From an uncultured Verrucomicrobiae bacterium (lineage in GTDB: Bacteria > Verrucomicrobiota > Verrucomicrobiia > Limisphaerales > Palsa-1400): a DNA stretch of 64,000 nucleotides. Every line of letters begins with the position of its first letter. Within the stretch, counting starts at the first letter, position 1. The DNA is taken from positions 64,001 through 128,000 of the forward strand of contig OY969763.1 in NCBI GenBank assembly GCA_963702845.1. Reading direction: 5' to 3'. Under the pieces are notes generated by a model that was not told where the DNA came from, made no database searches, and saw only the letters and a program-made list of their open reading frames with translations. The position numbers and the translations under genes were made by a program. This document shows positions 29,949-59,544 of this stretch, piece by piece.

Positions 29949-29990
29949 GCTGCCGGCGCTAGAGGCCAGATGCACGAAAAGGTAATACTC
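29949..29990 (+). repeat. Module-boundary motif copy 1
   Basis: GCTGCCGGCGCTAGAGGCCAGATGCACGAAAAGGTAATACTC; related copies at 32344, 40005, 46071, 48069, 59485. Confidence 0.8.
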
Positions 29991-30091
29991 TAGATGCTAT
30001 CTTCGTCGGTAGTCATTTCTAACGCTTTTAAGGGGTAAGCGCAGCCATTTGCATGCGGTAAGAGATCGCCCGGTCTATGATTGATCGATTA

Positions 30092-31258
30092 TTACCTCTC
30101 AAGATCAATACTCGCTCTGAGGTTTTCGATTTTGGCGCATGACCACAAGACCTTCGTAGATAGTACGTTGACCTGCGGCTTTAGGTCTTTAAGCTTTGCC
30201 TTCGATCGTTCAACGGCCTGGACGTTCCATTTGTACTCCGTTTGCGCACCCGCTAGCAGATGTTCAAGTTCGTTAGTATGGGCCAACGTTTTTGGTGCAA
30301 TCGGAGCGTTCTCGGTTACCGGCGGCCGCATTCTCAAGTTCTCGATTTCATCCGTAAGTGCTCGAATCGATTCTTTCAATTGGATAATGCGCTTTTCGGC
30401 AGCCTGTTTTTCGGCTTCCGTCAACTTCACCCTAGCGAGCAGGTTGGTCAATTCGTGCTGTTCCAGCGAGAGTTCCCGGGCCTGTTTCGACAGCTTTAGA
30501 AGATATTGGCGAAAGCTGTCGTCGATATGGAGCTTAGCGTAGCCGTAATAGAACGCGCTGGGATCTTGCAAAATGAATTCAGACGCACTGATCTTCTGAA
30601 ACTGCAATCCTGCGGATTTTGCTGCAATTTCAATTTCTGCAAAGTTGGAGAATGCGGTGTGGCTAGTTGCGCGGTAATCAACGCCCTGCAGTTGCAAAAC
30701 ACCCGACAGTGTAGATGTTTCTGGCGATGCCAAGTCGCTCAGGAGCTGAGTTTCATCGTGCTGAATTGGGTCGATTGATCGAAGCCTCTCGTTCATAGCC
30801 CCTTCTGGCTTCATAAAGAGCTTAGCTTTTTCCACCGACAGTGTGGTTTCGTCGTATGTTGCGTGTGCTATGCTCAGCAAGATCGACGCCACGCGTGGAT
30901 TGACCAACGGAGCCTTAATCGAGGCCAACGCGCTGAGACGAATGCCAGACACGATGCTGAGAGTTTCATGGGGAAGGCTTAATGGCTGGTCTTGAACATC
31001 TTTAAAGAGGCGATCGGCTGTGTATCTCAAGTGTTCGATTGTACCGTCCCGGGGGACGCGAAGAATGGTTCCAGCACCATAACCGTCGTTGTAGACACGA
31101 AAGGGAATGATGCGGAATTGCTGGCGCAGTGTAGTATTAAACTTTTCCACCGGTGACGAGCAACCGGACACCAAAACGCATGCAAGCATAGCGGTGGCGG
31201 CGCCGCTCCAGTGGAGAAAGGCGCGGATGATTTGGCGATTGCGAATAGTTTTCTTCAT
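30092..31258 (-). CDS. Putative lipoprotein with beta-rich domain and C-terminal coiled coil
   Basis: 388-aa ORF, lipobox-like LVSG|C, heptad-rich C-terminal third. Confidence 0.7.
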   Translation of the reverse strand: MKKTIRNRQIIRAFLHWSGAATAMLACVLVSGCSSPVEKFNTTLRQQFRIIPFRVYNDGYGAGTILRVPRDGTIEHLRYTADRLFKDVQDQPLSLPHETLSIVSGIRLSALASIKAPLVNPRVASILLSIAHATYDETTLSVEKAKLFMKPEGAMNERLRSIDPIQHDETQLLSDLASPETSTLSGVLQLQGVDYRATSHTAFSNFAEIEIAAKSAGLQFQKISASEFILQDPSAFYYGYAKLHIDDSFRQYLLKLSKQARELSLEQHELTNLLARVKLTEAEKQAAEKRIIQLKESIRALTDEIENLRMRPPVTENAPIAPKTLAHTNELEHLLAGAQTEYKWNVQAVERSKAKLKDLKPQVNVLSTKVLWSCAKIENLRASIDLER

Positions 31259-31412
31259 AAGCTCAACATTTAAAAACTTTCAACTAACATCATCGTGTAT
31301 GATGTAAACCTCATTTAGTGTCAAGTGAATCACGTTATGCAATAATGTTAATTGTGCGTAATGTCCTATGTATTAGAAAAATATAGATTGCATTTTTGAT
31401 GTAATATTTTTA

Positions 31413-32307
31413 TTGTCTCCCTCGCAATCTATGACGCTTGATTCTCATGAAGCTCTGCAAAAAGAACTCGACGAATTGCTAACCATTTGTCAGTTAAAGG
31501 AATGGGGAAACACTGAGCGGCAGCGGCTGAAGGATTTTCGCACGGCAATTGGTGCCGGCGTTCCAGAAATTGCACTGGCGCTCGACGTTACGCCGGCGAC
31601 TGTGAGGTGGTGGGAGCGCCAGACCGGTGATCAAGAGGAGCGCAGCGCGCCGCCGCCAATCGATAAGGTTAGGCGGTTTGGGGATTTGATTCTGGAGAGG
31701 AAGCTTCGTGCAATGTTACAACCAGGGAGGGGTGGTGCTGTCGTCGGCGCCGTATTGCAACAGGTTCGTAACTTGCAGTATGTAATGGATCGGGCGCGGG
31801 AAAGCAGCCGGTTTTGGGTATTTCGTTTCGGATGCGCTTTCAACTCCGGGATTGATGATGGAGTGTTCAAGACTACCGTCGACTATTGGTTGCAAGCCAA
31901 GGAAAATGCCCAGTTGATTTTTGTTTACGCCGAAGCCGGCAAAGACAATCCAGAGACCGAGGTTTACAAAGCCGAGCTATCGTACCGCGGCTTTGTTAAA
32001 AAGTGTCAACAATTGTCACAATCCGATCGAGAAAAACTATCTCAACATTGGCTGGGAGCCGCAGTCAACAAATCTGAAGCGAGTCAACTTGGGCTTGTCG
32101 ACCCTTGGGTCTCGTACGCAATGGCGGAGTACCGACGCAGATGCCTTTGTAAAGACCAGGCGGAGCCTAGATGTTTGGACTGAGATGGTTTTCGAAAATG
32201 GTCCGGCGTGGCTAGAACTACCCGAATTGGCAGCGCTTCAATGGAAGCAGCGGAGAGCACAGATTCTATCTTCTATCGTGCAACGCGCTACGCCACCCAC
32301 AGCGTAA
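31413..32307 (+). CDS. XRE-type HTH protein with unknown C-terminal domain (one frameshift near 32140)
   Basis: LKDFRTAIGAGVPEIALALDVTPATVRWWE HTH; the 31921-32307 frame supplies a plausible C-terminus; divergent from the lipoprotein across an AT-rich spacer. Confidence 0.65.
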
Positions 32308-32387
32308 GCAGCTGGAAGTTAGTTAAAGAAGTTGAGCACGTGTGCTGCCGGCGCTAGAAAGTATTACCTAGAGGTCGGACTGAATGG

Positions 32388-32671: not shown

Positions 32672-34461
32672 TGATATGGCTCTCTGATTGTCAAGTGGGC
32701 AATGCGATTCGGCTTCCGTTTTTTTACGGTTTTTCTTTCTGACATTGAGCAATGGACTGTTGAGTTGGCAGAAGCAGCAATCAACGACGGTTGATCCTGC
32801 TGATATGCGTGAGTTCATCGGGTCCGAAGACCTGACTTATCGACCTGACCACGGTTCGAGTCGCGGCGCTTCCTCTCTCTAGGCACGAGGGTTCGTTCGC
32901 AAGGAACTTCCTCTTAACACTCACGAGGGTTCGCCTAACCGAGCTGCTCTCTGCCAACTCATCAATCCACTGCAAAGTTAAAGTTTTTTTATTTGTTCGG
33001 TTTTGCCCAGCGATTCGACCGGGTGAGCGCAGCGGCAGCGTAGCGAGAGCTGGCGCGATAGCGCTTCGGCTCACGTGCTCATCAGCAGTTGGTTTGCTGA
33101 TAATCGGTTCGTGCCACTTCATTCTTAAATGTTATTTTTTATAAGTTCGGGTTGGATTCAGTTTGTAAACGCGGCCGCGGCAGGTCCGGATAATTTCCGG
33201 CGCAGCTGGTTTTTGCGGCGCTTTGATCTGGCAGGCGATGGCCCAGACAAAGCCGGTCAGTTCACGCGCAATGGCAGTGACCACCACGACGCTCTTTTTA
33301 CGAACCGATAGGAAGCGGAACCGTTTATGCAGTCGCTGTTGAGCTTTCCATGCGATCAAGCGGACTTCTTTGCTTTGTTTTTCCTGTCATTTTTGCATGA
33401 CCTCGCTGACCTGCGGTTTGAGACGGTAATGCCAGGACGCTTCGGTCAGGACGCGCCGGCAGTGGGTGTTGCCGCATTTAGTAATCCCACCTTGGCTGCG
33501 TTTTCCGCCGCTGCTGTGCTCGCAGGAAGTCAGTCCAAAAAAACTCATCAGCTGCCGCGGCTCAGTAAAGCGGGTCATGTCCCCAGCCTCAGCCACCAAA
33601 GTCATCCCGTTGAGCACTTGCACCCCACGCAAGCTCATCAGCCCGCGCACCACCGGTTCCCATTTCCAGCCCGACAAAGAGTTTTCCACTGCTTGAGTCA
33701 GTCGTTCCAGTCGCTGGCTGGCGTCGTCGATCGTATGAATGCATTCCTGAAAGACGATTTGCTGCGCCGGTTGCGGCATGAGCAAGCCGGAGAGATAACG
33801 CTTGTGCGCATCGTTCCAACTGGTCTTGCCGCTGTAACGAAAACCCAGTCGCAACAAAAAGCCTTTCAAACGATTTCGGGCCTGGCGCTGGTCACACACC
33901 GCCGCAGTGCGGGCCCGGATCAAATCGCGGATAGCTTCATCCTCCTGATCAGGCACGTAGATGGCCCTCAGTTCTCCCGCCCGATAAAGACGGGCCAGTT
34001 GCTCGGCATCACGCCGATCAGTCTTCACCCGGTCGGAAGCCTTTTTGGGAATGAGCGAAGGCGACACCACATCGCATTGGATGCCTTTGCTTTTAAGATA
34101 GCGATGAATGACAAAGCCGCAGGGACCCGCTTCGTAAACAAAACGCAGTTCAATGTTTTGTGCAGATAGTTTTTTGACGAGCTTTTCGACGGCTTCAAGG
34201 GCTCCGCCGATGATGCCGTAGGAACGGACCTCGGTGGTATCCTGCGGCGCGATGGCCACGGCAATAGTTTCTTTGTGGACGTCCAGACCGAGGTAATGCA
34301 CGATTTTATTCATGGGTGTTTGGTTTCTTTCATTGATGCTGAATCAGCCCCGACCCGCCGTCGGGACTCTCATATTGCGGATAGGTCGGCACACGCCGAT
34401 AACCCGCGTAACACCGAGATCAAACACCCATCTGACTTTCTCGTTAAGCCATATGGTCTAT
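32672..34461 (-). mobile_element. IS110-family (IS1111-like) insertion sequence
   Basis: Subterminal inverted repeats ATATGGCT/AGCCATAT at 32674 and ~34447-34454, outward -35 TTGACA at the right end (32689-32694), ~450-bp non-coding region downstream of the transposase; exact ends +/- a few bp. Confidence 0.85.
33132..34313 (-). CDS. IS110 family transposase/recombinase (frameshift near 33390)
   Basis: GLDVHKE, YEAGPCG, KTDRRDA (DEDD RuvC-like), GLTSCEHSSG..ITKCGN, AIARELTGFVWAI. Confidence 0.95.
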
Positions 34462-37527: not shown

Positions 37528-37548
37528 TGGAGCCAGTTGCCGGACTTG
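37528..37548 (-). repeat. att site copy 2: 3' end of tRNA (probably tRNA-Thr)
   Basis: TGGAGCCAGTTGCCGGACTTG is identical to 27610-27630 and lies ~250 bp from the integrase stop. Confidence 0.85.
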
Positions 37549-37705: not shown

Positions 37706-37844
37706 GATGTCCAGTTTGGTGTCCGAAATGGTGTCCGTTTTTCCGGATCGGAATTGTCGGTTCGCAACAGTTGGCTAAACGCGACGACTTTTTCTAACCG
37801 TTCACTTGCCGTTGAAGCCCGTTTTGGTGTCCAAAATGGTGTCC
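37706..37844. repeat. GGTGTCC heptamers at 12-bp spacing (arm-type-like sites)
   Basis: GATGTCC 37706; GGTGTCC at 37718, 37730, 37826 and 37838. Confidence 0.7.
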
Positions 37845-38966
37845 GCTTTTCACGGTTTCGGATGATGAAATTTCGCTTTCTGTATTCGTTGACGGGATCG
37901 CGGGCAATGATACCGATGGCAGCGCTTGCGCAAGTGTTGCTTGGCTTTTCTGCCAGTGTGCTTCCCAGTCCTCGAGTGATGGCACGATGACTTCGGCGTT
38001 GCGCGAATAGGCGTGATGAACTGCTTTTGAATTATGACCGAGGGCTTCTTGGGCAAACCGCAACGGGTAGCCGCATTTCAAGGCGCGCTCGGCCCACGAG
38101 TAGCGATAGGAATGGAGACTCACGCCTTCAATGTTAAGACCCTCGCAGCGTTGCCAGAATTCGGTCGCGCGGTCATTTGTCCGAACTGTGCAGAGGTATG
38201 GGAATAGCGGACCAGCCTGGGGACGACGACGGAGTAGTTGCGCAACTTCATCACCGAAACGGATCAGCGCTGGACGAACGGTTTGTGGGTTGTGCTGGTT
38301 AAGTTTGCGGCGTGTGTAAGAGATCGTTCGCGCCGACCAGTTGATGTCCTCGGCACGTAGACAAGCAGCGTCGGTTTGCGAAGCGCCGGTGTGCCAAAGG
38401 AGTTCATAATAATCGCGACGCTCGGGATTGCCTTCTCGAGCAATGATAGCGTTGTGCTCGGCGGCGGAGATGGCGCGCTTCTTTCTGAATATCGGTTTTG
38501 GCCAGAGCAATTTTGGGAGAACCGATCTTAACAACCAATCCATGCCGAGGGCGTAATTGTGGATGCGACGCAGATAGACGTTTGTCGAAGGTTTGCGATC
38601 GGCGAGAACCTCCATGAAGTGTTCGGGACGAGTTTCGACGACGCGCAAGTTGCGAATGCAATCGAAGTTGCTGTCCTGAATGGCGGTCTTCCATCGACGT
38701 GCAGTTTCGCCACCGCGCTGTTCAACTATATGATTCATGACGTGCTGCCATGTGCGGGTGTTGAGATTCGGATCGACGCCGGCAAGGTAAACACGAGCCA
38801 AGGCCGCATTGAACAACGATTGGTTAACGGCGTCGTTATAGGCTTGGGTGAGGCGTTGGGCCTCGGCTTTGTCGCGAGTCTTGAGAGACTTGTGCCTCAT
38901 CGTTTTCTTGTCGACGAGGTAATAAATCCCGGTCTTGCGGCGAAAGAATCGAAATTGAATTTGCAT
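37794..38966 (-). CDS. Tyrosine recombinase/integrase
   Basis: N-terminal KSLKTRDKAEA arm-like region; LHSYRY (HxxR), ALGHNS and distal Tyr (HHAY); adjacent to att. Confidence 0.9.
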   Translation of the reverse strand: MQIQFRFFRRKTGIYYLVDKKTMRHKSLKTRDKAEAQRLTQAYNDAVNQSLFNAALARVYLAGVDPNLNTRTWQHVMNHIVEQRGGETARRWKTAIQDSNFDCIRNLRVVETRPEHFMEVLADRKPSTNVYLRRIHNYALGMDWLLRSVLPKLLWPKPIFRKKRAISAAEHNAIIAREGNPERRDYYELLWHTGASQTDAACLRAEDINWSARTISYTRRKLNQHNPQTVRPALIRFGDEVAQLLRRRPQAGPLFPYLCTVRTNDRATEFWQRCEGLNIEGVSLHSYRYSWAERALKCGYPLRFAQEALGHNSKAVHHAYSRNAEVIVPSLEDWEAHWQKSQATLAQALPSVSLPAIPSTNTESEISSSETVKSGHHFGHQNGLQRQVNG

Positions 38967-39093
38967 CGGGCGCAAAAATGAAGATGGAATCGCGCTACTG
39001 CAAGAAAACGTAAGAGCTTGCGTGTTTGATGGGCCGAAACGTTGATGAACGTCGGCTTGCTTCATGACTATTGTTTAAGAAACACTCGATCCC

Positions 39094-48778: not shown

Positions 48779-49678
48779 ATGACTGCGGCAGAATTGTTGG
48801 AGAAATTGGGTAAGGTGACAGTCTGGAAACGCGGAGGTGAGCGTGCTCCGCACAAGCCGCTCTTGATCCTGTTGGCAGTCGGGCGGATTGCGCAAAACAA
48901 GCCCAGGTTGATGCGGTTCGCTGAGGTCGAGGAACCGCTCCGGCAGTTGTTGATAGAGTTTGGTCCCCGCAGAAAATCATATCACCCGGAATACCCGTTC
49001 TGGTATTTGCGCAATAATGGCATTTGGGAAATTCCTGATGCCGGAGATGTGGCCCTTAAAAAGAACCATCGAGACCCAAAGCTTGATGATATTCGAAGAT
49101 TCAGCGGCGGATTTTTACCCGAGGCCTACGAAGTTCTGCACAAACATCCAGGATTGCAAAGGGAGGCGGCCACGGAAATCTTGAAGGCGAATTTCCCAGA
49201 TTCTCTTCACGAGGAAATTCTCAGCGCCATCGGAATTAGTCGCGAAGATGCGGAAACGAAGCGCAAGAAGCGCAATCCAGAATTCCGCTTGCTGGTAATG
49301 CGTGCTTACCAGCACAAATGTGCGATATGCGGATTCGATATGCGATTAGGAGCGTCCGGTTTGGGTCTCGAAGCGGCCCACATTCAGTGGCATCAGGCAG
49401 GTGGCCCGGATAGCGTAGATAACGGCCTTTGTCTTTGGACCATGCATCATCATCTTTTTGACCGCGGGGCGTTCGGGCTCACGAATAGAGGACAAATTGT
49501 GGTCAGCGAAGAAGTCCATGGCTCCAGCGGGATTGATGAATGGTTGCTCCGCTTCGAAGGACAGCGACTAAAGAAGCCACAGCGGGAGAGCTATCTTCCT
49601 AAACAAGAGTTCATGGACTGGCACCGGACGGAAGTATTTAAATCACCAGCGCGCGAAACGCTTAAGGCCGGCGTTTAG
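48779..49678 (+). CDS. SBD-HNH (phosphorothioate-binding-domain) restriction endonuclease-like protein
   Basis: RAPHKPLLIL...PEYPFWYL....IWE (sulfur-binding domain pattern) plus FRLLVMRAY..KCAICG...EAAHI...NGLCL..MHH.LFDRG (HNH). Confidence 0.85.
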   Translation: MTAAELLEKLGKVTVWKRGGERAPHKPLLILLAVGRIAQNKPRLMRFAEVEEPLRQLLIEFGPRRKSYHPEYPFWYLRNNGIWEIPDAGDVALKKNHRDPKLDDIRRFSGGFLPEAYEVLHKHPGLQREAATEILKANFPDSLHEEILSAIGISREDAETKRKKRNPEFRLLVMRAYQHKCAICGFDMRLGASGLGLEAAHIQWHQAGGPDSVDNGLCLWTMHHHLFDRGAFGLTNRGQIVVSEEVHGSSGIDEWLLRFEGQRLKKPQRESYLPKQEFMDWHRTEVFKSPARETLKAGV

Positions 49679-49693
49679 GAAATTAAGAGAGTC

Positions 49694-50956: not shown

Positions 50957-50967
50957 TCATATCTAAG

Positions 50968-52098
50968 ATGATTTACCTCGATCACAATGCCACGACGCCT
51001 GTAGCACCGGAAGTTGTCGAAGCAATGATGCCGTATCTGACGGCTGAATGGGGCAATCCGTCGAGTAGCTACAAATTTGGAGCAAAGTTAAAATCAGTTG
51101 TCGAGGCAGCGCGGGGCCAGGTAGCTGAACTGCTGGGCGCGAACCCGGGCGAAGTGCTTTTCACGTCTTGCGCGACGGAAAGTAACAATGCTGCGATTCA
51201 CGCCGCGCTCAAGGCAAACCCTGGGAAGCGGCATATTATAACGTCGGCGGTCGAGCATTCATCCGTGCTTAATTACTGCATTGCGCTGGAAAAGGAGGGT
51301 GTCAAGGTCACCTACTTGCCTGTGGATCGCGAAGGTTTGCTCAAGATCGCAGACCTGGAAGCGGCGATCTCCGATGAAACGGCTGTGGTGTCGCTGATGT
51401 GGGCAAATAACGAAACTGGCGTCTTATTCCCATTACCGGCAATTGCTGATGTGTGTAAAGCGCGAGGCGTATCATTCCACTGCGATGCGGTTCAGGCTGC
51501 GGGCAAGGTGGAGATCAATTTGCAGAAGGTCCCAGTCGATTACCTATCGGTGACTGGACACAAATTCGGCGCGCCTAAAGGAATCGGGGCGCTATTTGTG
51601 CGTCGCAAAGTGCCATTCTCGCCGCTAATCCACGGCGGACATCAAGAGCGAGGACGTCGCGGAGGCACGGAAGCGATGCCGTTGCTGGTCGGCTTGGGCA
51701 AGGCGGCAGAACTGGCGCGCAAGAAACTGTCTGATTATAACGGGCTGGTCCGCCCGCTCCGAGACGCATTGGAGTGCGGGATTCTGTCTTCGGTTCCCTA
51801 CACAGAGTTAAATGGTCACAAGATCCATCGCCTTGCGAATACCACAAATATTACCTTCCAAGGCATAGAATCTGAGGCGTTATTAATGTTATTAGATCAG
51901 GAAGGAATTTGTGCTTCGTCGGGTTCAGCGTGCTTAGCTGATTCGAGCGAGGCGTCCCATGTTATCAAAGCCATGAAGCCCGACACACGCTCTTCACGTC
52001 AGATGGTTCGATTTTCTTTCGGGTGTCAGCATTCAGAATTGGACGTGGAACAAACCCTCGCTAAAATAAATACCGCCGTAAGCGCCTTGCGCCCATGA
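50968..52098 (+). CDS. iscS: Cysteine desulfurase (IscS/NifS type; probable DndA role)
   Basis: IYLDHNATT, GNPSS, ANNETG, HCDAVQ, GHKFGAPKG, SSGSAC. Confidence 0.9.
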   Translation: MIYLDHNATTPVAPEVVEAMMPYLTAEWGNPSSSYKFGAKLKSVVEAARGQVAELLGANPGEVLFTSCATESNNAAIHAALKANPGKRHIITSAVEHSSVLNYCIALEKEGVKVTYLPVDREGLLKIADLEAAISDETAVVSLMWANNETGVLFPLPAIADVCKARGVSFHCDAVQAAGKVEINLQKVPVDYLSVTGHKFGAPKGIGALFVRRKVPFSPLIHGGHQERGRRGGTEAMPLLVGLGKAAELARKKLSDYNGLVRPLRDALECGILSSVPYTELNGHKIHRLANTTNITFQGIESEALLMLLDQEGICASSGSACLADSSEASHVIKAMKPDTRSSRQMVRFSFGCQHSELDVEQTLAKINTAVSALRP

Positions 52099-52117
52099 GC
52101 TTTGCTGGTGGAGTGCA

Positions 52118-53395
52118 TCATGTTATTAAGCCACCCATGCCAATCAATTTCTCTTTCAGTGTATTTTGCATCACGCCAAGCTTTTCGATCTCCTTGGGGG
52201 TGAACATCTCCGCTCTAAATTTCGCGTATAGGTCGTTTTGAATTCCGCCACCACCGGTTTTCGGCGGGTTTGCCACGTCGTCGGGCGGAGCCTTGCGCCA
52301 TCTTTCCACTACAAGCTTATAGCTGTCCATCAACTGTTCGGGTCCGCCTGCCAAGAGGATGTCGTCGTGCAAGATCCGCATGATTACGGCAACCCCATTA
52401 TTTTTCCACAGGAGGGATCTTGAATTTGCAAATTGATCAACCAATGCAGCCTGAATAGCGCGAATGTACAGAATAAGTAGCGACGCGCATCCTGCTGGAT
52501 CAGATTCTTTGAAAAAGCTGTAGAGTAGTGGCAAAACTTTTAAACGGCGTGTGAAGGTTTTGGGTTCAACTAGGGCTGCTAAGTATTCGACGACTGCTGC
52601 CTGCGAGATGAGGCCGACATCTCCGGGCCCTCGCATCTTGATCTTGGCCTGCCACGGGGACTCCTCGAAGCGATTGAGGATGCGCGCCACGTGACTGCAG
52701 AACCGTGAAACTGCCATTAGTCCTTCGTAAAGTTTTTCGTCTTTCGTCCCGCCGAGTGGAGCATACCCAAACAGGTCAAAGATAATCGATCTGTTAACCG
52801 GCTTCTGCCGGCCGTTGATAACGGCAAAGATCTCGGCCTGTTGGTAGAATGGTATTTCCACGAGGAATGTCACGACAACGCTCATTCGGCTGCGGATTTC
52901 ATTTTTCAGGTATCGAAATCCTTCAACCCGATGTTGTCCGTCTAGAATAACCGCTGATTTCTCCTCTCTCGGCAACACGATCGTTAGGTGGCCGTTGGCA
53001 CCGGATTTGATGATTTCGGGCTCATCAAAGCCAAGGTCAACGGCCAGAATTATCGAATTGGGGAGAAGGGCATCCGGTTGTTCAAGATACTCAGCAATCT
53101 TTTGCGCTCTCTTAGCATCGACGAAGCGCTGGTATTGTTGTCGGGGTTCTTCGCTCAAGAGTTCCTCGGCTCGGCGTTGAAATTTTGGCGAATCGAGCGC
53201 GCTAATCAGCTTATCTAGTTGGTCCTCTTTCAGTTCAACCGGTTGGAACGATTCACGCGCGAATACGCCCGTTTCGACTGGCTTATAGAGCGGGCGGCAA
53301 ATGCATAGCAGATCGTTTACGGGGACGGTTGCCACGTAGAATGTTGCCGCAGGCTGAGAAACGCGAAGAATAGGTGCTCGGAATGGTATTTTCAT
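52118..53395 (-). CDS. DGQHR-domain (DndB-like/ParB-fold) protein
   Basis: YQRFVD.KR..KIAEYL, LPNSIILA, ILDGQHR, F..IN..QKPV..S. Confidence 0.9.
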   Translation of the reverse strand: MKIPFRAPILRVSQPAATFYVATVPVNDLLCICRPLYKPVETGVFARESFQPVELKEDQLDKLISALDSPKFQRRAEELLSEEPRQQYQRFVDAKRAQKIAEYLEQPDALLPNSIILAVDLGFDEPEIIKSGANGHLTIVLPREEKSAVILDGQHRVEGFRYLKNEIRSRMSVVVTFLVEIPFYQQAEIFAVINGRQKPVNRSIIFDLFGYAPLGGTKDEKLYEGLMAVSRFCSHVARILNRFEESPWQAKIKMRGPGDVGLISQAAVVEYLAALVEPKTFTRRLKVLPLLYSFFKESDPAGCASLLILYIRAIQAALVDQFANSRSLLWKNNGVAVIMRILHDDILLAGGPEQLMDSYKLVVERWRKAPPDDVANPPKTGGGGIQNDLYAKFRAEMFTPKEIEKLGVMQNTLKEKLIGMGGLIT

Positions 53396-54225
53396 AACGT
53401 GCCAGCCCTTTTTTCTCCGTTTCCGAGCTTTCCTTTCAGCCTTTCCTTTACTTCGTCCGTATCTTCTCTCGAAAGAGCGTCACCCAGTGGTGCTGGGCCG
53501 CTTGCTTCAGTAGTAATAGCCACTTCTGGACCAGGCGGAGCCGTTTCTTCACCAAGTTTTGTCCGTAACTTCGCCTGAAGCTGGTCAATGTCAGTTAGCG
53601 CTTTCTCGAGAACAGCTCGGGTGCTGTCAATTTCTGATTCATGCTGGCCCGCTCGCCGCGCACTTTTTTCCGCGTCGTCAGCTTGCTCTTTAGCTTGCGT
53701 CCGAATCTTCTCGAGCTCCTTAACGGCTTTATCTCGGAAGTCTTCCCATTCCGCACGCCATTGCGCGTCGGCCCTAGCAATACGTTTGCGATACTCATCA
53801 TTGAAGTCGCGGAGACTTTTGAATGCAAACCAACCGACGACGCCTGCTCCCAGACTCACGATGCTTGCCAGAATTCCGATCCACCAGCCAAAGCCTTGAA
53901 AGACGCTCGCTACTTTATCGACGGTCTTATTATTCGCTTCGACCGCATCCTTAAATAAAAGGTGCGTGTCTTCTTTTTTTGGAGCCAACTCGCTGGCAAT
54001 CGTTGCGGTAGTTTGTGTGGTCTGTTTTTCCAGCATAGCCAACCGGGCTAGCAGTTGCTTCCAATCTGCTTCAGTAGAGGGACTGCTGGCCTTCGTCGGT
54101 GGTAATGCAGCAGGCGATATTTGTGGCTTCAGTGGTGGCGCGGCCGCAGGGTTCGTCGGTTGAGCAACAAGGAAATGACAATTCAATCCTATGGCTACAA
54201 CCGCTAAAGATTTTAACAATTTCAT
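53392..54225 (-). CDS. Exported/TM coiled-coil protein
   Basis: Signal peptide, Pro-rich linker, one TM (WWIGILASIVSLGAGVVGWF), long coiled coil; 4-bp overlap with the DGQHR gene. Confidence 0.7.
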   Translation of the reverse strand: MKLLKSLAVVAIGLNCHFLVAQPTNPAAAPPLKPQISPAALPPTKASSPSTEADWKQLLARLAMLEKQTTQTTATIASELAPKKEDTHLLFKDAVEANNKTVDKVASVFQGFGWWIGILASIVSLGAGVVGWFAFKSLRDFNDEYRKRIARADAQWRAEWEDFRDKAVKELEKIRTQAKEQADDAEKSARRAGQHESEIDSTRAVLEKALTDIDQLQAKLRTKLGEETAPPGPEVAITTEASGPAPLGDALSREDTDEVKERLKGKLGNGEKRAGTL

Positions 54226-54271
54226 TGTTTCCCAAATTTGTTTTTCGTTTACGAATTCTGAAGCCGTCAGC

Positions 54272-55831
54272 TCATTTTCCTATGCTGTCGGGCTTCCAAC
54301 ACTTTATTCGCATAGCCTGCCTGCCAGGCAATTTGGCGAAAGCAACGCCGGTTTCCAAATATGCGTCACCGAACTCTTCTGCCTGCAATTTCCTTCCATA
54401 CACACCCTGTAGTGAACGCAAGCCACGTTGGGTTTGGTTACAATAAAATGAAATGACCGCGCCAAGTTGGGTGGTGAAGTCGTAACTCTGGCCTTCAAAA
54501 TCGCTTGGGTCTTGAGACAGCAGCATCACAGATAAACCCTTGGCGGCGCTTCGTGTAACTAACTGGACAATCGATTCCGATTTTTTTTCCTGCAATATTT
54601 TGCGGGCTTCATCAATAACCACAACTTGTCGCATTTGTCGAAAACCACCGCGTAATGGCGCTTCAGACAAGGCGAGAAAGTGCATCGCCGTGGCATCCAG
54701 CAATAACAACATGACCAAGCGCTTCAATTCTTCAGATTTTATATGCTGTAGGCTGACAACCCACGAGCGGGAGAAGAAGTCTGCAGCCGTCATGGTTGGT
54801 GCGAAACAGCGAAGACGTGTAAGCTCGTCCAACCGCGCGGCAATGCTGTCAATCACTTCACCGTCAATTTGTAAGCGCTGTTCGTATGTTTCCTTAATTG
54901 AGGAGAGGCTGCGATCATCACCCGTGGTAATCACTTGTTCGATAGACTGCAGGAGTCGAGACTGCATTAAATTGCCAGGAGATTTACAGCAAAGGCAAAT
55001 GCTGTCGCGCAGAGTCATTGATGCATTTTGAACGGCTACATGGCCAACGTGAGGACTGGGCAAGAAGTCTAAAGGGATTGGGTGCAGCCCAACCTCTATT
55101 GGCTGTATCTCGACTGGCCAGGCGGGAAATTTATCATTTAATTTTCCGTCAGTGATAAAGGTGCCTTGGGGATCAATCAGCAACATCGGCGCGCGTGATT
55201 GCTCAACAATGCTTTGCGCCATCTGGATGCCGGTTGTGGTTTTACCGCTTCGGGTTCTTCCCATTAGTGCCAGGTGGGGAGAATTGCCCGGGCCGTTTAA
55301 ACAAAAGTCAACGGGCTCCTTGCTGTCGAATGTTTGACTGACAGGGCCGATTTTCACCCTTATTTCGCCGGGGTGCGCACTGCCAGTAACGTGAGGCGCA
55401 GTTCCTCCTCCGCTAACTTCAGGAAGGAATTCAGCCAATTTAGTAATGAGCCGTGCTTCGTCGCCGCCACAATCGTCCCAATCCTGCTTTATCAGTTTTG
55501 CGCCCCGGGCCCAGTGCGCTTCAATGTGCGGACGCAAATGTTCAACGGCCGCGCCTTCGCTGATATTCGCATCAAGAATTAGAGCGCACAACCAGAGGTC
55601 AAGATCGTCGCCAAAAAGGAGCTCACCAGGCAACGGTTTGGCATATTGGGTTTCCGACGACAATGCTGGCGGCGGGGTTGGGTCGGCAAGCGATCGGCCG
55701 ATTAGTAAACGAGCGGCATCATAACGATGGGAAAGGCCAAATTTTGTGCGAAGCTTTTCCTCAACCTCGAACGCCTCCTGGCTCGGTTTGAACAACCCTT
55801 TCCAAACTGCTTCTTTGAATTCAATATTCAT
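54272..55831 (-). CDS. DndE-like domain fused to HerA/FtsK-type ATPase
   Basis: N-terminal ~130 aa with ARLLIGRSL...GELLFG...EAHWARG (DndE-like), in the dndE position after dndD; C-terminal HLALMGRTRSGKT, VVVIDEA, LLSQ.PSDF. Confidence 0.8.
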   Translation of the reverse strand: MNIEFKEAVWKGLFKPSQEAFEVEEKLRTKFGLSHRYDAARLLIGRSLADPTPPPALSSETQYAKPLPGELLFGDDLDLWLCALILDANISEGAAVEHLRPHIEAHWARGAKLIKQDWDDCGGDEARLITKLAEFLPEVSGGGTAPHVTGSAHPGEIRVKIGPVSQTFDSKEPVDFCLNGPGNSPHLALMGRTRSGKTTTGIQMAQSIVEQSRAPMLLIDPQGTFITDGKLNDKFPAWPVEIQPIEVGLHPIPLDFLPSPHVGHVAVQNASMTLRDSICLCCKSPGNLMQSRLLQSIEQVITTGDDRSLSSIKETYEQRLQIDGEVIDSIAARLDELTRLRCFAPTMTAADFFSRSWVVSLQHIKSEELKRLVMLLLLDATAMHFLALSEAPLRGGFRQMRQVVVIDEARKILQEKKSESIVQLVTRSAAKGLSVMLLSQDPSDFEGQSYDFTTQLGAVISFYCNQTQRGLRSLQGVYGRKLQAEEFGDAYLETGVAFAKLPGRQAMRIKCWKPDSIGK

Positions 55832-55837
55832 GGCTTC

Positions 55838-57907
55838 TCAAAAAAAGAAACGATTCGGGTGAACAATGGACCGCTTGTCGGATTCAACGAATTCAACAAG
55901 GAACTTCTGGCAAACGTGTTCTTCAATGTGTTCGAGCAGGTCATGGGTTACTTCGCGATCGTGAGTCAGAACGATAACCTGATCGCAGTCGAAACGGCGC
56001 AGGGCATCAAGTGTGCGCGGACGGTATTTGGAATCTGCGTTGCCCAAGGGAGTATCAATCACCAACGGCACGCGTCGGCGAGTGATTTCCGCCAGCGCTA
56101 ATGAAAACGCAATTCCAAATGATCGCCGTTCGAATCCGCTCATGGAACTTAGCAATGCTTTAGGGCTGCGGCCGTCAAAATGCAGATGCGGCTCACCGTC
56201 GTGGGTAAATGCGACGCGTCCGCCTTTGAATCGCTGGTCAGCGATAGCGAGGAAATGTTTTGTCACATGCTCTTCTAGTCGCTGTGTTGTCACTGGCTTG
56301 AGTTGTTCGGTAAGCGCTTCGACAGCGCGCGCTACACGGTCAGCCACAGCAATTCGCCGCTGTTCGGGCTCAAGTCGTGCCAGTTCTTCGCGCAACCGAC
56401 CAATCTCAGCAGATAAATCCTGATAATCGGCTTTCCATTTCTTGATTTCATTTTCCGCGGTAGAAATGCGGCGGATGGCTTCGTCCATCTGCTCGTCGAG
56501 GCGTTTGATACGCTCTGTTAAAGTCTTAGTTTCTTCAGATTGATTACCAAGCCGAACATGCCGCGCCTTGGCATCTTCAAAGCTTTCACGAGCGTCGCGT
56601 AACGTTTTTGCCACAGCGCGAACGTGATCAAAGGCGAAACTTTTGGTTTCATTAAGGCGGTTGAGCAATCGCGCACGTTGTTGACCGCGAATATGACCAA
56701 GCACAAAATGCTCTGCGGTATCAGGATCTGGTGGTTCGTAAATAGCCTGTAATGCAGTCAAAATCCTTTGCTTAACTTTTTCGCGCGTGTCTGCGGAGAT
56801 GTTGCCAAGCAACGGATCTCGATCTGGTGGCTCAGGCATGGCCTCCGCCAAAACCCTCTCCCGCTTGTCGAGCGTTCCCTGCCGCAGGTTTTCGTATTCT
56901 TCGCGCAGTTGTTCTTTGCGCAAACGCCGCCTAATTGAAGGATCCAGTCGGCTCACTGCGAGCACCAACCCGATTTGATTTGCAAGCTCGGTAACTGCTG
57001 CTTCGGCAGAGATTTTTTTGGCTTCGGCATCCTTGAACGCTTTATTGACGCGTTCAGTATCAGCAGCCCCGCCACCACCGGCGCGAACTAAATCATCACG
57101 ACGTTGGTTGCGTTCTCGATCCAACTCGTCTCGTTGCTGGTTTAATTCTTCCAGCTCACCTTCACGCCGGCCAATAAGTTTGTTGAGTTCGGTTTGACGG
57201 CTGATTTTTTGATTTAGAATTTCCTGTTTCTCGGAAGTTTTTTGCTTTCCGCCCAATGCCCCGTGAGATCGGGTGAGGTAGGTTCGAACTTGACTCTGTA
57301 ATTCCGATAATATGCTTGCGCCGAACATGGTGTTGACTGCCTTGCGGATACCCTCTTCCCCAGCGCCTTCAATCAGCGCTTGTGCTTGTTCGCCATCAAA
57401 GAAGAATGCCGGGCACACATGGGCAGGAAATAGTTCTTTCTCGATACGCTCGTTAGCAAGAATTGCTTCCATACGCCGAACGATTCGATCGCCAACATGG
57501 ATTTCCAATTCTTCAAATCCATCACCTATGCGGGGGGTATTTGCGCTTGTAAAATACCACCGGCGGATAATTCGCACCTCCTGCTCATCCCGATCATTCA
57601 AGGTTGGCGTAAAAGTGATATCAATCACGGTCGGCTCATCAGGGTCGGCGGTAGAGCGCCGGAATTTGGCGATAGCCTTACGGTAGGAGTTGATGTCGTT
57701 TTCGGCGATGGTACGAAAGCCTTCACAATGCCGTAGTCCGAAAGAGCCAAACAGGCCGAGATACAGTGAGATTAGGAAGCTGGTTTTGCCATGGCCATTC
57801 ATCGCCCCGATCAAAACAACGGGGCGTCTTTCCGTCGGACGTTTGAAGTCAAAATTCGCGTCTGAGTAACTACGCCAGTTGGTCAAATGAAGTTTCGATA
57901 AATACAT
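55838..57907 (-). CDS. dndD: DNA sulfur modification protein DndD (SMC/ABC ATPase)
   Basis: LIGAMNGHGKTS, FFFDGEQ, long coiled coil, MSGFE signature, LVIDTPLG. Confidence 0.9.
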   Translation of the reverse strand: MYLSKLHLTNWRSYSDANFDFKRPTERRPVVLIGAMNGHGKTSFLISLYLGLFGSFGLRHCEGFRTIAENDINSYRKAIAKFRRSTADPDEPTVIDITFTPTLNDRDEQEVRIIRRWYFTSANTPRIGDGFEELEIHVGDRIVRRMEAILANERIEKELFPAHVCPAFFFDGEQAQALIEGAGEEGIRKAVNTMFGASILSELQSQVRTYLTRSHGALGGKQKTSEKQEILNQKISRQTELNKLIGRREGELEELNQQRDELDRERNQRRDDLVRAGGGGAADTERVNKAFKDAEAKKISAEAAVTELANQIGLVLAVSRLDPSIRRRLRKEQLREEYENLRQGTLDKRERVLAEAMPEPPDRDPLLGNISADTREKVKQRILTALQAIYEPPDPDTAEHFVLGHIRGQQRARLLNRLNETKSFAFDHVRAVAKTLRDARESFEDAKARHVRLGNQSEETKTLTERIKRLDEQMDEAIRRISTAENEIKKWKADYQDLSAEIGRLREELARLEPEQRRIAVADRVARAVEALTEQLKPVTTQRLEEHVTKHFLAIADQRFKGGRVAFTHDGEPHLHFDGRSPKALLSSMSGFERRSFGIAFSLALAEITRRRVPLVIDTPLGNADSKYRPRTLDALRRFDCDQVIVLTHDREVTHDLLEHIEEHVCQKFLVEFVESDKRSIVHPNRFFF

Positions 57908-57910
57908 AGA

Positions 57911-58126
57911 TCACAGGTTTGGTCTGCGTTCCAGGAAACGGTCAATACAACCAGCAATATCGGCATCCACACCGTCTTTGCGTCCGGCGCCTGAATGCGC
58001 TTGCATGACTTCGCAGAGGTCTTTTAAGAGAGCCATATCTATTTGCGTCTCACGGCAAAGATTCTGGATAAGCTTTTTTGTTTCCTGATCTTCAAAGGCT
58101 GGTAATGGTCTCATTCGATTTATCAC
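57911..58126 (-). CDS. Small Dnd-associated protein
   Basis: 71 aa, tightly packed between dndC and dndD (8- and 3-bp gaps). Confidence 0.7.
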   Translation of the reverse strand: MINRMRPLPAFEDQETKKLIQNLCRETQIDMALLKDLCEVMQAHSGAGRKDGVDADIAGCIDRFLERRPNL

Positions 58127-58134
58127 TTCTTTTT

Positions 58135-59247
58135 TTAAGCGTTCATTTCACGCAGAATGTCCTGTGTCTGGTCCTTCTCCCACTGTTCCCGGATTAGACG
58201 CACTTCATGCTCAGTAATTAACGGTTCGTTGGTTTGTTCGCGAAGAGCGATTAGCTCACCAAGGAGCATCTGGCGAACTTCTATCGTTAATGGGCCAAGG
58301 CCAGGCTGCCCATTGCGCCGGATTTTGCTGCGACAATCAGGCGTTTCCGAAAGTTTCTTTAATCGGTCTCGAAATTTGGCAAGAGGCTCAAGATATTCGT
58401 GCCCATTGTCTATGAGAGCATCGAGCGAACGGTCTTTTTCGATCACAGTGCATGTCCAACAACCAAACCGAGCCGAGGAAGTTCCGCAGGACGGTGCATC
58501 GCCGGTTGTCATGACAAACGGACATTCGCCGCCACTGGCATCTTTGTAGAGTGATATCAGTTCCTGATATGTCCCCCCCCAAGGCGGACGATTTTGTTTG
58601 AGCGTAATCCAAACGTCATCATTCGTGAGTTCTTTAAGTGGCGAAAACACCCAAACACCCTTGTGATCGGGGTGCGGGGCTAAGCGGTCTCCGGAACCAC
58701 CTTCATTTCTGGATATGCTGCCTGCACGGGCTGCCGACTCAGACCGCCTTACTCCGAGCAGCAAAACAGCTTCGTCATTTTCGCTTACGATCTCACGGAT
58801 GAATCGCGAAGTAGGACGAATCTTCATCCGGTCGGTGCACCATCGAAAGGTCCGATTCGGTGCTGGGTACCCCTTGCCCAGCAAATTCACCCAAAAGCTT
58901 TCCTCTGGAAGTGGATTTGTCCGAATAATTTTGACCGGCACGTTTAACGGTTCGAGGTTGTCTTCCAGTTGAGAAAGCAGCCGATCAACGAAATTTTGAA
59001 ATACAGGCGACTCAACAAGGGTGTTATTGCTTACAACATAGACGGCGCGCTTGCGGTCATCCGGAGCAACCTGCCTGATGGCCTCCATCACAAGATGCAA
59101 TAGGAGTGTTGAATCTTTCCCCCCGGAAAACCCAATAATCCACGGCTTACCGTGCGGCTGGAGATACTCGTCTCTTAGCTCACGGCGGATGGCTTTAAGC
59201 TTTTCAGCGTATACTGTGCTCGGTGATTCTAGCAGTTCTGTTTGCAT
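58135..59247 (-). CDS. dndC: DNA phosphorothioation sulfurtransferase DndC
   Basis: PWIIGFSGGKDS, GKGYPAP..FRWCTDRMKI, LGVRRSES, GECP, SCG..RFGCWTCTV. Confidence 0.95.
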   Translation of the reverse strand: MQTELLESPSTVYAEKLKAIRRELRDEYLQPHGKPWIIGFSGGKDSTLLLHLVMEAIRQVAPDDRKRAVYVVSNNTLVESPVFQNFVDRLLSQLEDNLEPLNVPVKIIRTNPLPEESFWVNLLGKGYPAPNRTFRWCTDRMKIRPTSRFIREIVSENDEAVLLLGVRRSESAARAGSISRNEGGSGDRLAPHPDHKGVWVFSPLKELTNDDVWITLKQNRPPWGGTYQELISLYKDASGGECPFVMTTGDAPSCGTSSARFGCWTCTVIEKDRSLDALIDNGHEYLEPLAKFRDRLKKLSETPDCRSKIRRNGQPGLGPLTIEVRQMLLGELIALREQTNEPLITEHEVRLIREQWEKDQTQDILREMNA

Positions 59248-59544
59248 TGTTCAGACTACTGCCGAGTAGGAAAACAGACTATCGAGCATGCCATTGTTTG
59301 CCGAGGCTCAGTTAAGGTGCAAATCATAGGGTGAGGCTACCGAGAAAAGGGTGGGATGGGCAAGAGGCATGGTTGATAAATGCAAATCGTAGTCGCATCT
59401 TCCTCCTTGTCTTTTTTTGCCCTCGTGTTGCCGAGATCCAGTTGCGATGACTTTTTTCAAAAGTGAGATGCTTAAGATTGGCGGTGCCGGCGCTAATGGC
59501 AAGCGTTTGCTATTCCGACGTGTTCGCACAGCGCGATACGAGTA

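What the first reader, a model, noticed from the sequence alone, without database searches (positions are those of the whole stretch)
29949..59500. A ~40-bp same-orientation motif punctuates both islands at gene-module boundaries: candidate undescribed cassette-accretion system
Seen: related copies at 29949 (GCTGCCGGCGCTAGAGGCCAGATGCACGAAAAGGTAATAC), 32344 (GCTGCCGGCGCTAGA, truncated), 40005 (GCTGCTGGCGCTAGAGGC..GC...AAAGG), 46071 (CTGCCGGCGCTGGAGGCCACGTGCACGAAAAGGAAATA), 48069 (GCTGCCGGCGCTAGAGGCTGGGTGCATGAAAATGTAATAC) and 59485 (TGCCGGCGCTAATGGC), with a possible degenerate copy near 60692-60723. All are on the same strand and intergenic, and I saw none in the 27-kb core region. Two sit between convergent genes (40005, 48069), one between divergent genes (46071), and the others between tandem genes, so an ordinary promoter, RBS or terminator does not fit. 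The copies bracket coherent units: lipoprotein+XRE; the NLR/ATPase operon; rmuC+UDG; the whole Dnd+nuclease locus. The motif does not resemble attC (no GTTRRRY hairpin) or dif. Inference: it is a recombination site or insertion scar through which defence modules are stacked into the island, analogous to integron attC or pdif modules.
Basis: partly seen in the sequence, partly recalled or inferred. Interest (0 to 1): 0.88.

Follow-up and report, generated by a model that had tools for sequence, protein, structure and literature searches.

The report
Repeat marking cargo-module junctions in islands
A conserved 60-base DNA repeat sits exactly at the joints between unrelated accessory and defence gene modules inside several phage-like islands of one verrucomicrobial genus, and it probably marks where modules are swapped, though the enzyme and mechanism are unknown.

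Summary
The repeat is real. The window has four full copies of about 60 bp (29939, 39995, 46060, 48059) and one truncated copy (32336), all on the + strand and all intergenic. The 59483 copy is marginal and the 60692 copy is noise.

It is not a genome-wide REP. The 6-Mb genome holds only 10 full copies, all inside tRNA- or tmRNA-integrated phage-like islands. Elsewhere it was found only in one same-genus MAG and one metagenome contig.

The window's "two islands" are one composite 58.5-kb insertion at tRNA-Thr. It is bounded by 21-22-bp tRNA repeats, and the site is empty in the relative. So the integrases use tRNA ends, not this motif.

The motif lies in the cargo region between the integrase module and the conserved backbone. 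In three independent comparisons, sequence homology stops exactly at a motif edge.

It has no hairpin, attC boxes, promoter, terminator or Rfam match, and no IntI gene is present.

Best reading: a module-junction recombination element, closest in function to the PeSLs of T4-type phages. The cassette idea is partly supported; the mechanism is unproven.

The parts
27610..27631 (-). 22-bp direct repeat of the 3' end of tRNA-Thr. It is the left border of the composite island. Homology with the relative's empty site ends here.
29939..30000 (+). Motif copy 1 (full). It lies between two tandem minus-strand genes, 28654-29916 and 30092-31258.
   Evidence: E 7.5e-20
32336..32358 (+). Truncated motif copy; only the left 23 positions remain.
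   Evidence: E 9.5e-4
32738..34460 (-). IS110-family insertion sequence with two further copies in the genome. It is not adjacent to the truncated motif and is not part of the motif system.
37528..37548 (-). 21-bp direct repeat of the tRNA-Thr 3' end. It is the internal junction of the two stacked elements.
37794..39065 (-). Tyrosine integrase, with a 50% identical paralogue next to tRNA-Thr at genome 149.0-150.0 kb. It is only about 20% identical to the integrases beside the other motif arrays.
39995..40056 (+). Motif copy 2 (full). It lies between the convergent NERD-domain gene and a Schlafen/AAA/TPR NTPase gene and overlaps the latter's stop codon.
   Evidence: E 2.1e-16
40046..45724 (-). 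Module: a three-gene operon of STAND-like NTPases (Schlafen-AAA_16-NB-ARC-TPR protein, a 250-aa protein and an AAA_16 protein).
46060..46121 (+). Motif copy 3 (full). It lies between divergent genes, and its 3' end is degenerate.
   Evidence: E 7.8e-15
46122..48039 (+). Module: an RmuC-family gene (PADLOC RTasRmuC, E 1e-145) and two small ORFs.
48059..48120 (+). Motif copy 4 (full). It fills the 82-bp gap between convergent genes.
   Evidence: E 3.6e-17
48122..59247 (.). Module: a 178-aa ORF, an HNH endonuclease and a Dnd/Pbe-type phosphorothioation cluster (DndA, DndB-like, DndE/HerA-like, DndD/PbeC, DndC).
59481..59503 (+). Marginal partial match to the motif (23 positions), 42 bp from the stop of the WYL gene. 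It may be a decayed last copy or a chance match.
   Evidence: (E 0.059)
59545..60621 (-). WYL/WCX regulator gene. It is the first gene of the part conserved with the paralogous islands and with the relative's island.

Best explanation
The motif is a sequence-conserved, non-hairpin, double-stranded junction element of about 60 bp. It belongs to the accessory (cargo) region of integrase-borne, phage-like capsid islands in one verrucomicrobial genus. Each island integrates at a tRNA or tmRNA gene through its own integrase. Between the integrase module and the conserved backbone (WYL regulator, replication, terminase, portal and capsid genes) lies a variable region made of unrelated gene modules, and a motif copy in the backbone's orientation sits at the joints. 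I infer that modules are gained, lost and exchanged between co-resident islands by recombination at these copies. A circle or a donor island carrying one copy recombines with a resident copy and leaves the module flanked by two copies. Recombination between two direct copies deletes the module or releases it as a circle.

Shown: the copies, their restriction to island cargo regions, their orientation, and homology breakpoints at motif edges.

Inferred: that the recombination happens at the motif rather than merely next to it, and which enzyme does it. That could be short-homology recombination helped by the island's own exonuclease and RusA-type resolvase, or an unidentified site-specific recombinase that recognises the two invariant blocks.
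For: (1) Distribution. There are only 10 full copies in the 6.03-Mb genome (nhmmer E up to 6e-13). All lie in five island loci: the tRNA-Thr composite island of the window, a 55-kb tmRNA island, a 47-kb tRNA-Asp island, and an island relic at 3.33 Mb with an integrase C-terminal remnant, plus a partial copy 9 bp after an integrase stop at 4.816 Mb.

(2) Position. In the tmRNA and tRNA-Asp islands the arrays sit between the integrase and an 87% identical DUF2071 gene, with entirely different cargo in between. In the metagenome contig the single copy follows a serine-recombinase/ParB-like module.

(3) Breakpoints. Homology between the tmRNA and tRNA-Asp islands starts exactly at the 5' edge of the DUF2071-proximal copy. 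In the related MAG, L005 and L007 share 134 bp plus the motif and diverge at its 3' edge. L005 and L006 share the motif plus 88 bp and diverge at its 5' edge. Among 190 pairs of +/-3-kb regions, no alignment extends beyond the motif on both sides.

(4) Tight packing. Copies lie 0-90 bp from the ends of flanking ORFs, and single-gene modules in L005 are bracketed precisely.

(5) Constraint. Copies are 75% identical between the two genomes and 76% within them, while the flanks are at 30%. Two blocks are nearly invariant. Orthologous DNA of the two genomes is 74-84% identical.

(6) Orientation. The motif follows the island backbone in 4 of 4 islands.

(7) The islands encode a PD-(D/E)XK exonuclease and a RusA-like resolvase.

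(8) A published precedent exists for repeat-mediated module shuffling in phage hyperplastic regions (PeSLs; PMC2839356, abstract and section 13 read).
Against: No recombination product (circle, deletion variant or empty site) was observed, and no sequencing run could be listed. No dedicated recombinase was found. The neighbouring integrases are of three unrelated kinds, and the commonest kind occurs in 26 of 31 family genomes although only 2 of 31 carry the motif.

The copies share only about 15-bp runs of perfect identity and average 76% identity. That is poor substrate for RecA-type homologous recombination. The motif also shows no dyad symmetry of the kind seen in the core sites of tyrosine recombinases.

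A test for chimeric copies was confounded by faster change at the 3' end and is inconclusive.

Breakpoints at motif edges would also arise if the motif were simply the only conserved, selected sequence between fast-turning-over modules. Some joints between functionally distinct genes have no motif, for example integrase|NERD and 48658|48767. The whole data set is two genomes and one contig.
Confidence: 0.5

Rival explanations
1. The motif is a protein-binding regulatory or insulating site, for example an operator-like site for an island or host factor that silences or separates cargo transcription. It is kept at module joints by selection and has no role in recombination.
For: Conservation is block-wise: two nearly invariant blocks of about 15 and 10-20 bp are separated by variable positions. 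That pattern looks like sequence-specific protein recognition rather than mere homology. Identity between genomes equals identity within genomes. Orientation is fixed relative to the backbone.
Against: The flanking genes lie in every orientation relative to the motif, so there is no consistent promoter- or operator-to-gene geometry. No sigma-70 promoter or terminator pattern overlaps any of the four copies within 29000-48999. This reading does not by itself explain why homology between loci ends precisely at motif edges, nor why the motif is confined to the variable region.
Confidence: 0.2
2. The copies are ends or relics of a small non-autonomous mobile element, MITE-like or produced by one-ended transposition. 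The element inserts into intergenic DNA of islands, and the modules are bystanders.
For: The edges are sharp and the flanks unrelated. Copy number is low and lineage-restricted. Truncated and internally deleted copies exist. Some copies share 88-134 bp of one flank.
Against: The motif has no terminal inverted repeats, and I saw no target-site duplication when reading the aligned copies and their flanks. No transposase is associated with it; the IS110 copy at 32738-34460 is about 380 bp from the nearest motif remnant. Random insertion would not give one orientation in all arrays or confine copies to the integrase-to-backbone interval.
Confidence: 0.12
3. The motif is the attachment-site core of the neighbouring integrases, and the array results from tandem site-specific integration of small elements by those integrases.
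For: Arrays of same-orientation direct repeats with unrelated DNA between them are what tandem integration produces. A copy follows the integrase stop by 87 bp in the tmRNA island and by 9 bp (partial copy) at 4.816 Mb.
Against: The integrases have clear att repeats of their own. These are the 3' ends of tRNA-Thr (22 and 21 bp), tmRNA (24 bp) and tRNA-Asp (29 bp), and they bound islands of 47-58 kb. The window integrase is about 20% identical to those at the other arrays. The metagenome copy lies beside a serine recombinase. The integrase family is in 26 of 31 family genomes, but it was not found in the motif-bearing MAG, and the motif is absent from the other genomes that have the integrase.
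Confidence: 0.05
4. The motif is a folded single-strand site or structured RNA, such as an attC-like hairpin, a terminator or a small RNA.
For: A short stem (CTAGAG/CTCTAG type) can form in some copies. Three of 20 strand folds reach z of -2 or lower. Many copies are followed by T-rich DNA.
Against: The mean folding z-score is -0.22 for the top strand and -0.74 for the bottom strand over 10 copies each. RNAalifold gives no consensus structure on either strand with RNA or DNA parameters. The window has no Rfam match at gathering scores, and none up to E 5 around three copies. A scan for R''/R' box pairs found 0 in the window. No terminator-like site overlaps a copy. No integron integrase scores above the family cut-off in G000, G001 or G002.
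Confidence: 0.03

Closest known systems
PeSLs (promoter-early stem-loop cassettes) of T4-type phages (Arbiol et al. 2010, PMC2839356; Comeau et al. 2014, PMC4122927, seen in the search listing only)
   Same: Both are short repeated intergenic motifs concentrated in the hyperplastic, accessory part of a phage-type genome. Both sit at the borders of variable genes, and insertions, deletions and replacements between relatives break at them. PeSLs have been shown to form mini-circles by recombination between neighbouring copies.
   Different: PeSLs are a sigma-70 promoter plus a stem-loop terminator and are oriented with the downstream gene. This motif has neither feature, and its flanking genes lie in all orientations. 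It occurs in integrated islands of a verrucomicrobium, not in a lytic phage. Circles are untested here.
Integron attC sites and CALIN arrays
   Same: Both form arrays of same-orientation sites of about 60 bp that tightly bracket single genes or small operons of unrelated function. In both cases arrays can stand without a nearby integrase.
   Different: The motif has no R''/L''-L'/R' inverted-repeat hairpin and no GTTRRRY or RYYYAAC boxes, and the three genomes of the genus lack IntI. Conservation is in primary sequence. Modules reach 11 kb.
pdif modules of Acinetobacter plasmids (XerC/XerD-dependent; recalled, not read here)
   Same: Both involve accessory modules bounded by copies of a short conserved site and no recombinase gene inside the module. 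A host enzyme would act in trans.
   Different: pdif sites are 28-bp dyads of XerC and XerD arms, and they alternate in orientation around modules. Here there is no dyad and all copies point the same way. I could not identify a chromosomal dif site to compare.
Tandem accretion of integrative elements at one att site (ICE/CIME accretion; recalled, not read here)
   Same: This process does occur in the window at a higher level. Three copies of the tRNA-Thr 3' end bound two stacked elements.
   Different: The 60-bp motif is not the repeat produced by those integrases. It lies inside the elements.
[quoted passage not shown] 2022, PMC9122126, search listing only; PMC13586616, passages read)
   Same: Both are a fixed position in a phage-like element, next to the integrase and regulator, that holds rapidly swapped defence systems. 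The 2026 paper states that the swapping mechanism is unresolved.
   Different: The passages I read from that paper mention no repeated boundary motif, and I did not read the Rousset paper. Here a conserved repeat marks the joints.

Membership tests
Integron attC site | Imperfect inverted repeats (R''-L''...L'-R') that fold into a hairpin on one strand | tested here: not met
   No consensus structure on either strand. Folding z-scores average -0.22 (top) and -0.74 (bottom), and 3 of 20 folds reach -2 or lower. No dyad appears in the position matrix.
Integron attC site | R'' RYYYAAC and R' GTTRRRY boxes at the two ends (box consensus recalled) | tested here: not met
   A scan for paired boxes 45-150 bp apart with a closing stem gave 0 sites in the window. 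The position where GTT would fall is variable among the 19 copies.
Integron attC site | An integron integrase (IntI) in the genome or lineage | tested here: not met
   TIGR02249 gave no match over the cut-off in 3 of 3 genomes of the genus. The best hits are Xer-like ORFs of 308-336 aa.
Integron attC site | Same-orientation sites bracketing unrelated cassettes | tested here: met
PeSL-type regulatory cassette | Sigma-70-like promoter inside the repeat | tested here: not met
   None of the 12 promoter-like sites in 29000-48999 overlaps a copy; 13.1 are expected by chance.
PeSL-type regulatory cassette | Stable stem-loop terminator inside the repeat | tested here: not met
PeSL-type regulatory cassette | Located in the variable region, with indels and replacements between relatives breaking at the repeat | tested here: met
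PeSL-type regulatory cassette | Mini-circles formed by recombination between neighbouring copies | not testable with these tools
   No sequencing run was listed for this DNA.
dif/pdif (Xer) site | 28-bp site with two 11-bp inverted arms around a 6-bp spacer (recalled) | tested here: not met
   No dyad symmetry in the matrix of 19 copies. The unit is about 60 bp.
dif/pdif (Xer) site | Sites alternate in orientation around modules (recalled) | tested here: not met
   All copies of each array are on one strand.
Integrase att core (direct repeat left by the adjacent integrase) | The repeat equals the 3' end of the target gene and bounds the whole element next to the integrase | tested here: not met
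   The repeats of tRNA-Thr, tmRNA and tRNA-Asp play that role. The motif lies inside the elements.
REP/BIME-type genome-wide intergenic repeat | Many copies scattered through core intergenic regions; palindromic | tested here: not met
   10 full copies in 6.03 Mb, all in islands. Not palindromic.

The most novel reading that the evidence does not exclude
The motif is the site of a previously undescribed cassette system. It would be a double-stranded, non-hairpin site of about 60 bp with two invariant blocks, recognised by a trans-acting recombinase encoded elsewhere in the host or island. Defence and other accessory modules would be excised as circles and inserted through it into the cargo region of phage-like satellites. 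That would make it an integron-like gene-capture device with different site chemistry, shared among islands that use unrelated integrases.
Probability: 0.2. Interest if true: 0.85.

Novelty: new variant of a known kind. Interest (0 to 1): 0.55.

Why it matters
How defence systems are swapped so quickly in the hotspots of prophages and satellites is an open question. A 2026 survey of P2/P4 hotspots found neither transposons nor adequate flanking homology to explain it (PMC13586616, passages read). This case offers a concrete, testable candidate. A conserved 60-bp junction repeat is shared by several co-resident islands that have different integrases, and mosaic breakpoints fall at its edges. 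If recombination at the repeat is demonstrated, it would show one way cargo moves between mobile elements without transposases or integron machinery. The caveat is scope: the repeat was found in only two genomes of one genus and one metagenome contig.

Tried and rejected
- Generic REP: rejected.
- tRNA fragment or Rfam family: none found.
- Orphan right halves of the motif: none.
- attC: rejected.
- Promoter or terminator: rejected.
- Chi- or KOPS-like skewed word inside the motif: none. The only skewed 8-mers are rare and are explained by the copies themselves.
- dif-like site: I could not identify a chromosomal dif near the skew maximum with short recalled arm patterns, so no comparison was possible.
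- IS110 as the cause of the truncated copy: rejected. The IS ends about 380 bp away.
- Coupling to the integrase family next to the arrays: rejected.
- Analogous boundary repeats next to the same integrase family in four other genera: none. The one 56-nt repeat found (L044) is the coding sequence of a zinc-ribbon N-terminus.
- Chimerism (maximum chi-square) test for a crossover point inside the motif: 15 of 169 pairs reached p<0.01, but the result is driven by faster change at the 3' end and by two decayed copies, so it is inconclusive.
- Wider occurrence: 0 matches in IMG/VR with two patterns; 1 metagenome contig; one species-representative MAG only.
- Sequencing runs to look for circles, deletions or expression: none was listed and no RNA holder was listed.
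- Identity with the 'attI-like 58-base unit' of earlier notes on this genome: rejected.

Full report
**Observation.** The 18-base core of the reported motif occurs six times in the window with up to 3 mismatches, always on the + strand. Shuffles give 0.07 expected matches, and 0 of 100 reached six. Aligning the copies with wide flanks shows a unit of about 58-62 bp with sharp borders and unrelated DNA on both sides. The consensus printed is nTGTAnnTGCGCTGCCGGCGCTnGAGGCTAGnTGCACGAAAAGGTAAnACCCTAGATGCGnn. A sequence-only profile of 19 copies, run over the window with filters off, gives these results:
- four full copies: 29940-29998, 39996-40055, 46061-46117 and 48063-48119 (E 7.5e-20 to 7.8e-15);
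- one truncated copy keeping the left 23 positions: 32336-32358 (E 9.5e-4);
- a marginal 23-position match: 59481-59503 (E 0.059);
- only noise at the suggested 60692 site: 60709-60731 (E 8.2).

No copy lies left of 27.6 kb. The copies nearly fill the intergenic gaps; for example, the 82-bp gap between the convergent ORFs ending at 48039 and 48122.

**Not a genome-wide repeat.** The window is bases 64001-128000 of a single 6.03-Mb contig. An nhmmer profile finds 10 full copies in the whole genome (E up to 6e-13). Four are in the window, three at 1.6876-1.6924 Mb (+), one at 3.3304 Mb (-) and two at 4.3200-4.3212 Mb (-). There are also partial copies at 4.8163 Mb and at the two window sites. 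No isolated right halves exist. The refutation condition "scattered through core intergenic regions" is therefore not met.

**What the loci are.**
- The 1.69-Mb copies follow a tmRNA gene and a tyrosine integrase. The last 24 bases of the tmRNA recur 55 kb downstream.
- The 4.32-Mb copies lie beside tRNA-Asp and a 44% identical integrase. A 29-bp tRNA repeat lies 47 kb away.
- The 3.33-Mb copy is 0.6 kb from a 55-residue C-terminal remnant of the same integrase family.
- The partial copy at 4.816 Mb begins 9 bp after the stop of a third kind of integrase.

For the window itself, tRNA-Thr lies at genome 150163-150238. Its last 22 and 21 bases recur at window 27610-27631 and 37528-37548. In the same-genus MAG G002, DNA homologous to genome 150.5-151.1 kb is joined within about 250 bp to DNA homologous to genome 90.1-91.6 kb, and the homology ends at base 91631. 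So window 27632 onward, up to genome 150.2 kb, is a 58.5-kb insertion made of two stacked elements. It is not two separate islands next to a 27-kb core.

To the right of the WYL gene the insertion carries:
- a RusA-like resolvase;
- a PD-(D/E)XK exonuclease;
- a primase-helicase;
- small and large terminase subunits;
- portal, scaffold and major head proteins;
- a head-tail adaptor;
- a second integrase next to the tRNA.

I recognised no tail genes in the stretch I annotated. This backbone has paralogues in the tmRNA and tRNA-Asp islands and at 2.24 and 4.83 Mb.

**Where the motif sits.** In every island the copies lie in the variable interval between the integrase module and the conserved part (a DUF2071 gene, the WYL regulator and the backbone). 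They have the orientation of the backbone in 4 of 4 islands. With the origin near 4.75 Mb and the terminus near 2.21 Mb by cumulative GC skew, the top strand of the motif is the leading strand at all 5 loci. With five loci, and backbones that are themselves co-oriented, this is weak evidence.

The cargo between copies is unrelated from array to array. An all-against-all BLASTP of ORFs from 11 regions returned only four pairs, and none of them joins cargo modules of different arrays.

The cargo in the window includes:
- a STAND-like NTPase operon;
- an RmuC-family gene;
- an HNH endonuclease;
- a Dnd/Pbe phosphorothioation cluster.

In the tmRNA island it includes a zeta-toxin-domain pair and an AAA_16/pentapeptide protein. 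In G002 it includes an SRAP gene and a CBM96/collagen-repeat gene, each bracketed singly, as well as a type I/IIG methylase block and a znuABC-like operon. The modules are therefore not only defence genes.

**Breakpoints.** Three independent comparisons place the end of homology at a motif edge.
1. The tmRNA and tRNA-Asp islands share the DUF2071 gene (87% amino-acid identity) and the DNA up to and including the adjacent motif copy. Homology begins exactly at the 5' edge of the motif. In the tmRNA island this copy carries a 12-bp internal deletion.
2. In G002, L005 and L007 share 134 bp (the first codons and leader of the SRAP gene) plus the motif, and they diverge at its 3' edge.
3. L005 and L006 share the motif plus 88 bp to its right, and they diverge at its 5' edge.

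Among 190 pairs of +/-3-kb regions, only cases 2 and 3 extend more than 25 bp beyond the motif, each on one side only. None extends on both sides.

**Constraint.** Over the 60 core columns, the copies are on average 76% identical within a genome set and 75% between sets, while the flanks are at 30%. Two blocks, TGCGCTGCCGGCGCT and GAAAAGGTAA with its neighbours, are nearly invariant. Orthologous DNA of G000 and G002 is 74-84% identical. A 60-bp non-coding unit that keeps this level of identity across dispersed copies is probably under selection for its sequence.

**What it is not.**
- Rfam gives nothing at gathering scores for the window and five loci, and nothing up to E 5 around three copies.
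- There is no tRNA in the window.
- RNAalifold finds no consensus fold on either strand with RNA or DNA parameters.
- Folding z-scores of 10 copies average -0.22 (top strand) and -0.74 (bottom strand), and only 3 of 20 folds reach -2.
- A scan for attC-type box pairs found none in the window.
- No integron integrase passes the family cut-off in G000, G001 or G002.
- No promoter-like or terminator-like pattern overlaps a copy.
- The position matrix has no dyad symmetry.
- No word of the motif behaves like Chi or KOPS.

The integrases are not its partners. They have their own tRNA-derived att repeats, and three unrelated recombinase types flank arrays. The commonest type occurs in 26 of 31 family genomes, yet it was not found in G002, which has the motif. 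The motif is absent from the other 29 family genomes searched. G002 is only 67% complete, so its lack of that integrase is weak evidence.

**Range.** The profile matches 2 of 31 genomes of the family: G000 with 11 matches and G002 with 11. G001, of the same genus and 73% complete, has none. A BLAST of one copy against 41 relatives gave only 19-26-base matches outside these two genomes. An exact degenerate pattern found one species-representative genome among about 185,000, a Verrucomicrobiales MAG. It also found one metagenome contig (a single copy between a bPH-domain gene and a ParB/RepB-serine-recombinase module). It found nothing in IMG/VR.

**Mechanism.** I commit to this reading: the motif is the junction element of a cargo hotspot, and modules are exchanged by recombination at its copies (confidence 0.5). 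Two routes remain open.
- Short-homology recombination, as shown for PeSLs in T4-type phages (PMC2839356, abstract and section 13 read). The islands' exonuclease and RusA-like resolvase could help. Against this route, the copies share only about 15-bp perfect runs.
- A trans-acting site-specific recombinase recognising the two invariant blocks. Against this route, no candidate enzyme was found and the site has no dyad.

The main rival is a binding site for a regulatory or insulating protein (0.2). Smaller rivals are relics of a small mobile element (0.12), the att core of the neighbouring integrases (0.05) and a folded site or RNA (0.03). I could not test for circles or deletion alleles because no sequencing run was listed.

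**Earlier notes of this scan.** Notes on other windows of the same genome describe integron-type cassette arrays and an 'attI-like 58-base unit' inside the tmRNA island. I checked that unit: it has a different sequence from this motif. So the same islands seem to hold two different kinds of repeat-punctuated cargo. I did not verify the integron reading of the other repeat.

**Limits.** ORFs are longest-ORF calls, not curated genes. G002 is fragmented, with contigs of 5-20 kb. All comparative evidence rests on two genomes and one contig. Papers cited as 'recalled' were not read.

Noticed in passing
window 27610-27631 and 37528-37548; tRNA-Thr at genome 150163-150238 (outside the window): Three copies of the tRNA-Thr 3' end bound two stacked elements of 9.9 kb and 48.6 kb. 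The larger element has paralogous integrases (50% identical) at both ends, so in a circular form they would flank attP in tandem.
   Followed up: partly
window about 60628-60672, upstream of the WYL gene: A different repeat with a perfect palindrome (CACTTGGACA-N5-TGTCCAAGTG). It has 27 further BLAST matches around the genome and many in G002, yet the genome has only 4 WYL genes. It is therefore not simply a WYL operator and may be a separate dispersed palindromic element.
   Followed up: partly
window 60795-62740: The histidine kinase and the response-regulator/cyclase genes between the WYL gene and the backbone are absent from the orthologous island of G002 (L014), where the WYL homologue is followed within about 400 bp by the homologue of window 62802 onward.
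   Followed up: partly
window 32738-34460: An IS110-family element. A 99.9% identical copy lies at genome 1599761-1601483 and a 98% identical copy at 2834462-2836285. Part of it and the neighbouring ORF match G001 at 86-88%.
   Followed up: partly
L001:9616-10015 (genome 1687616-1688015): Two motif copies lie only 334 bp apart with no ORF of 70 aa or more between them. This may be the scar of a lost module.
   Followed up: no
L004:10299-10345 (genome about 4816299-4816345): Immediately after an integrase stop codon, the left part of the motif is followed by a second, shorter left part in tandem. This looks like an out-of-register junction between two copies.
   Followed up: no
L001:16673-17395 and L003:9213-10013: The DUF2071 genes of the tmRNA and tRNA-Asp islands are 87% identical in protein, while the integrases of the same islands are 44% identical. 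The islands are therefore mosaics.
   Followed up: partly
genome 1700007-1731167 (tmRNA island, outside the window): Ten copies of another repeat of about 75 bases, the 'attI-like unit' of earlier notes. Its sequence is unrelated to the motif studied here.
   Followed up: partly
L014:177-4657 (G002:C119): In the orthologous island of G002 the genes next to the WYL regulator are a DUF4007 protein and a 1160-aa protein with no Pfam match. No motif copy is present there.
   Followed up: no
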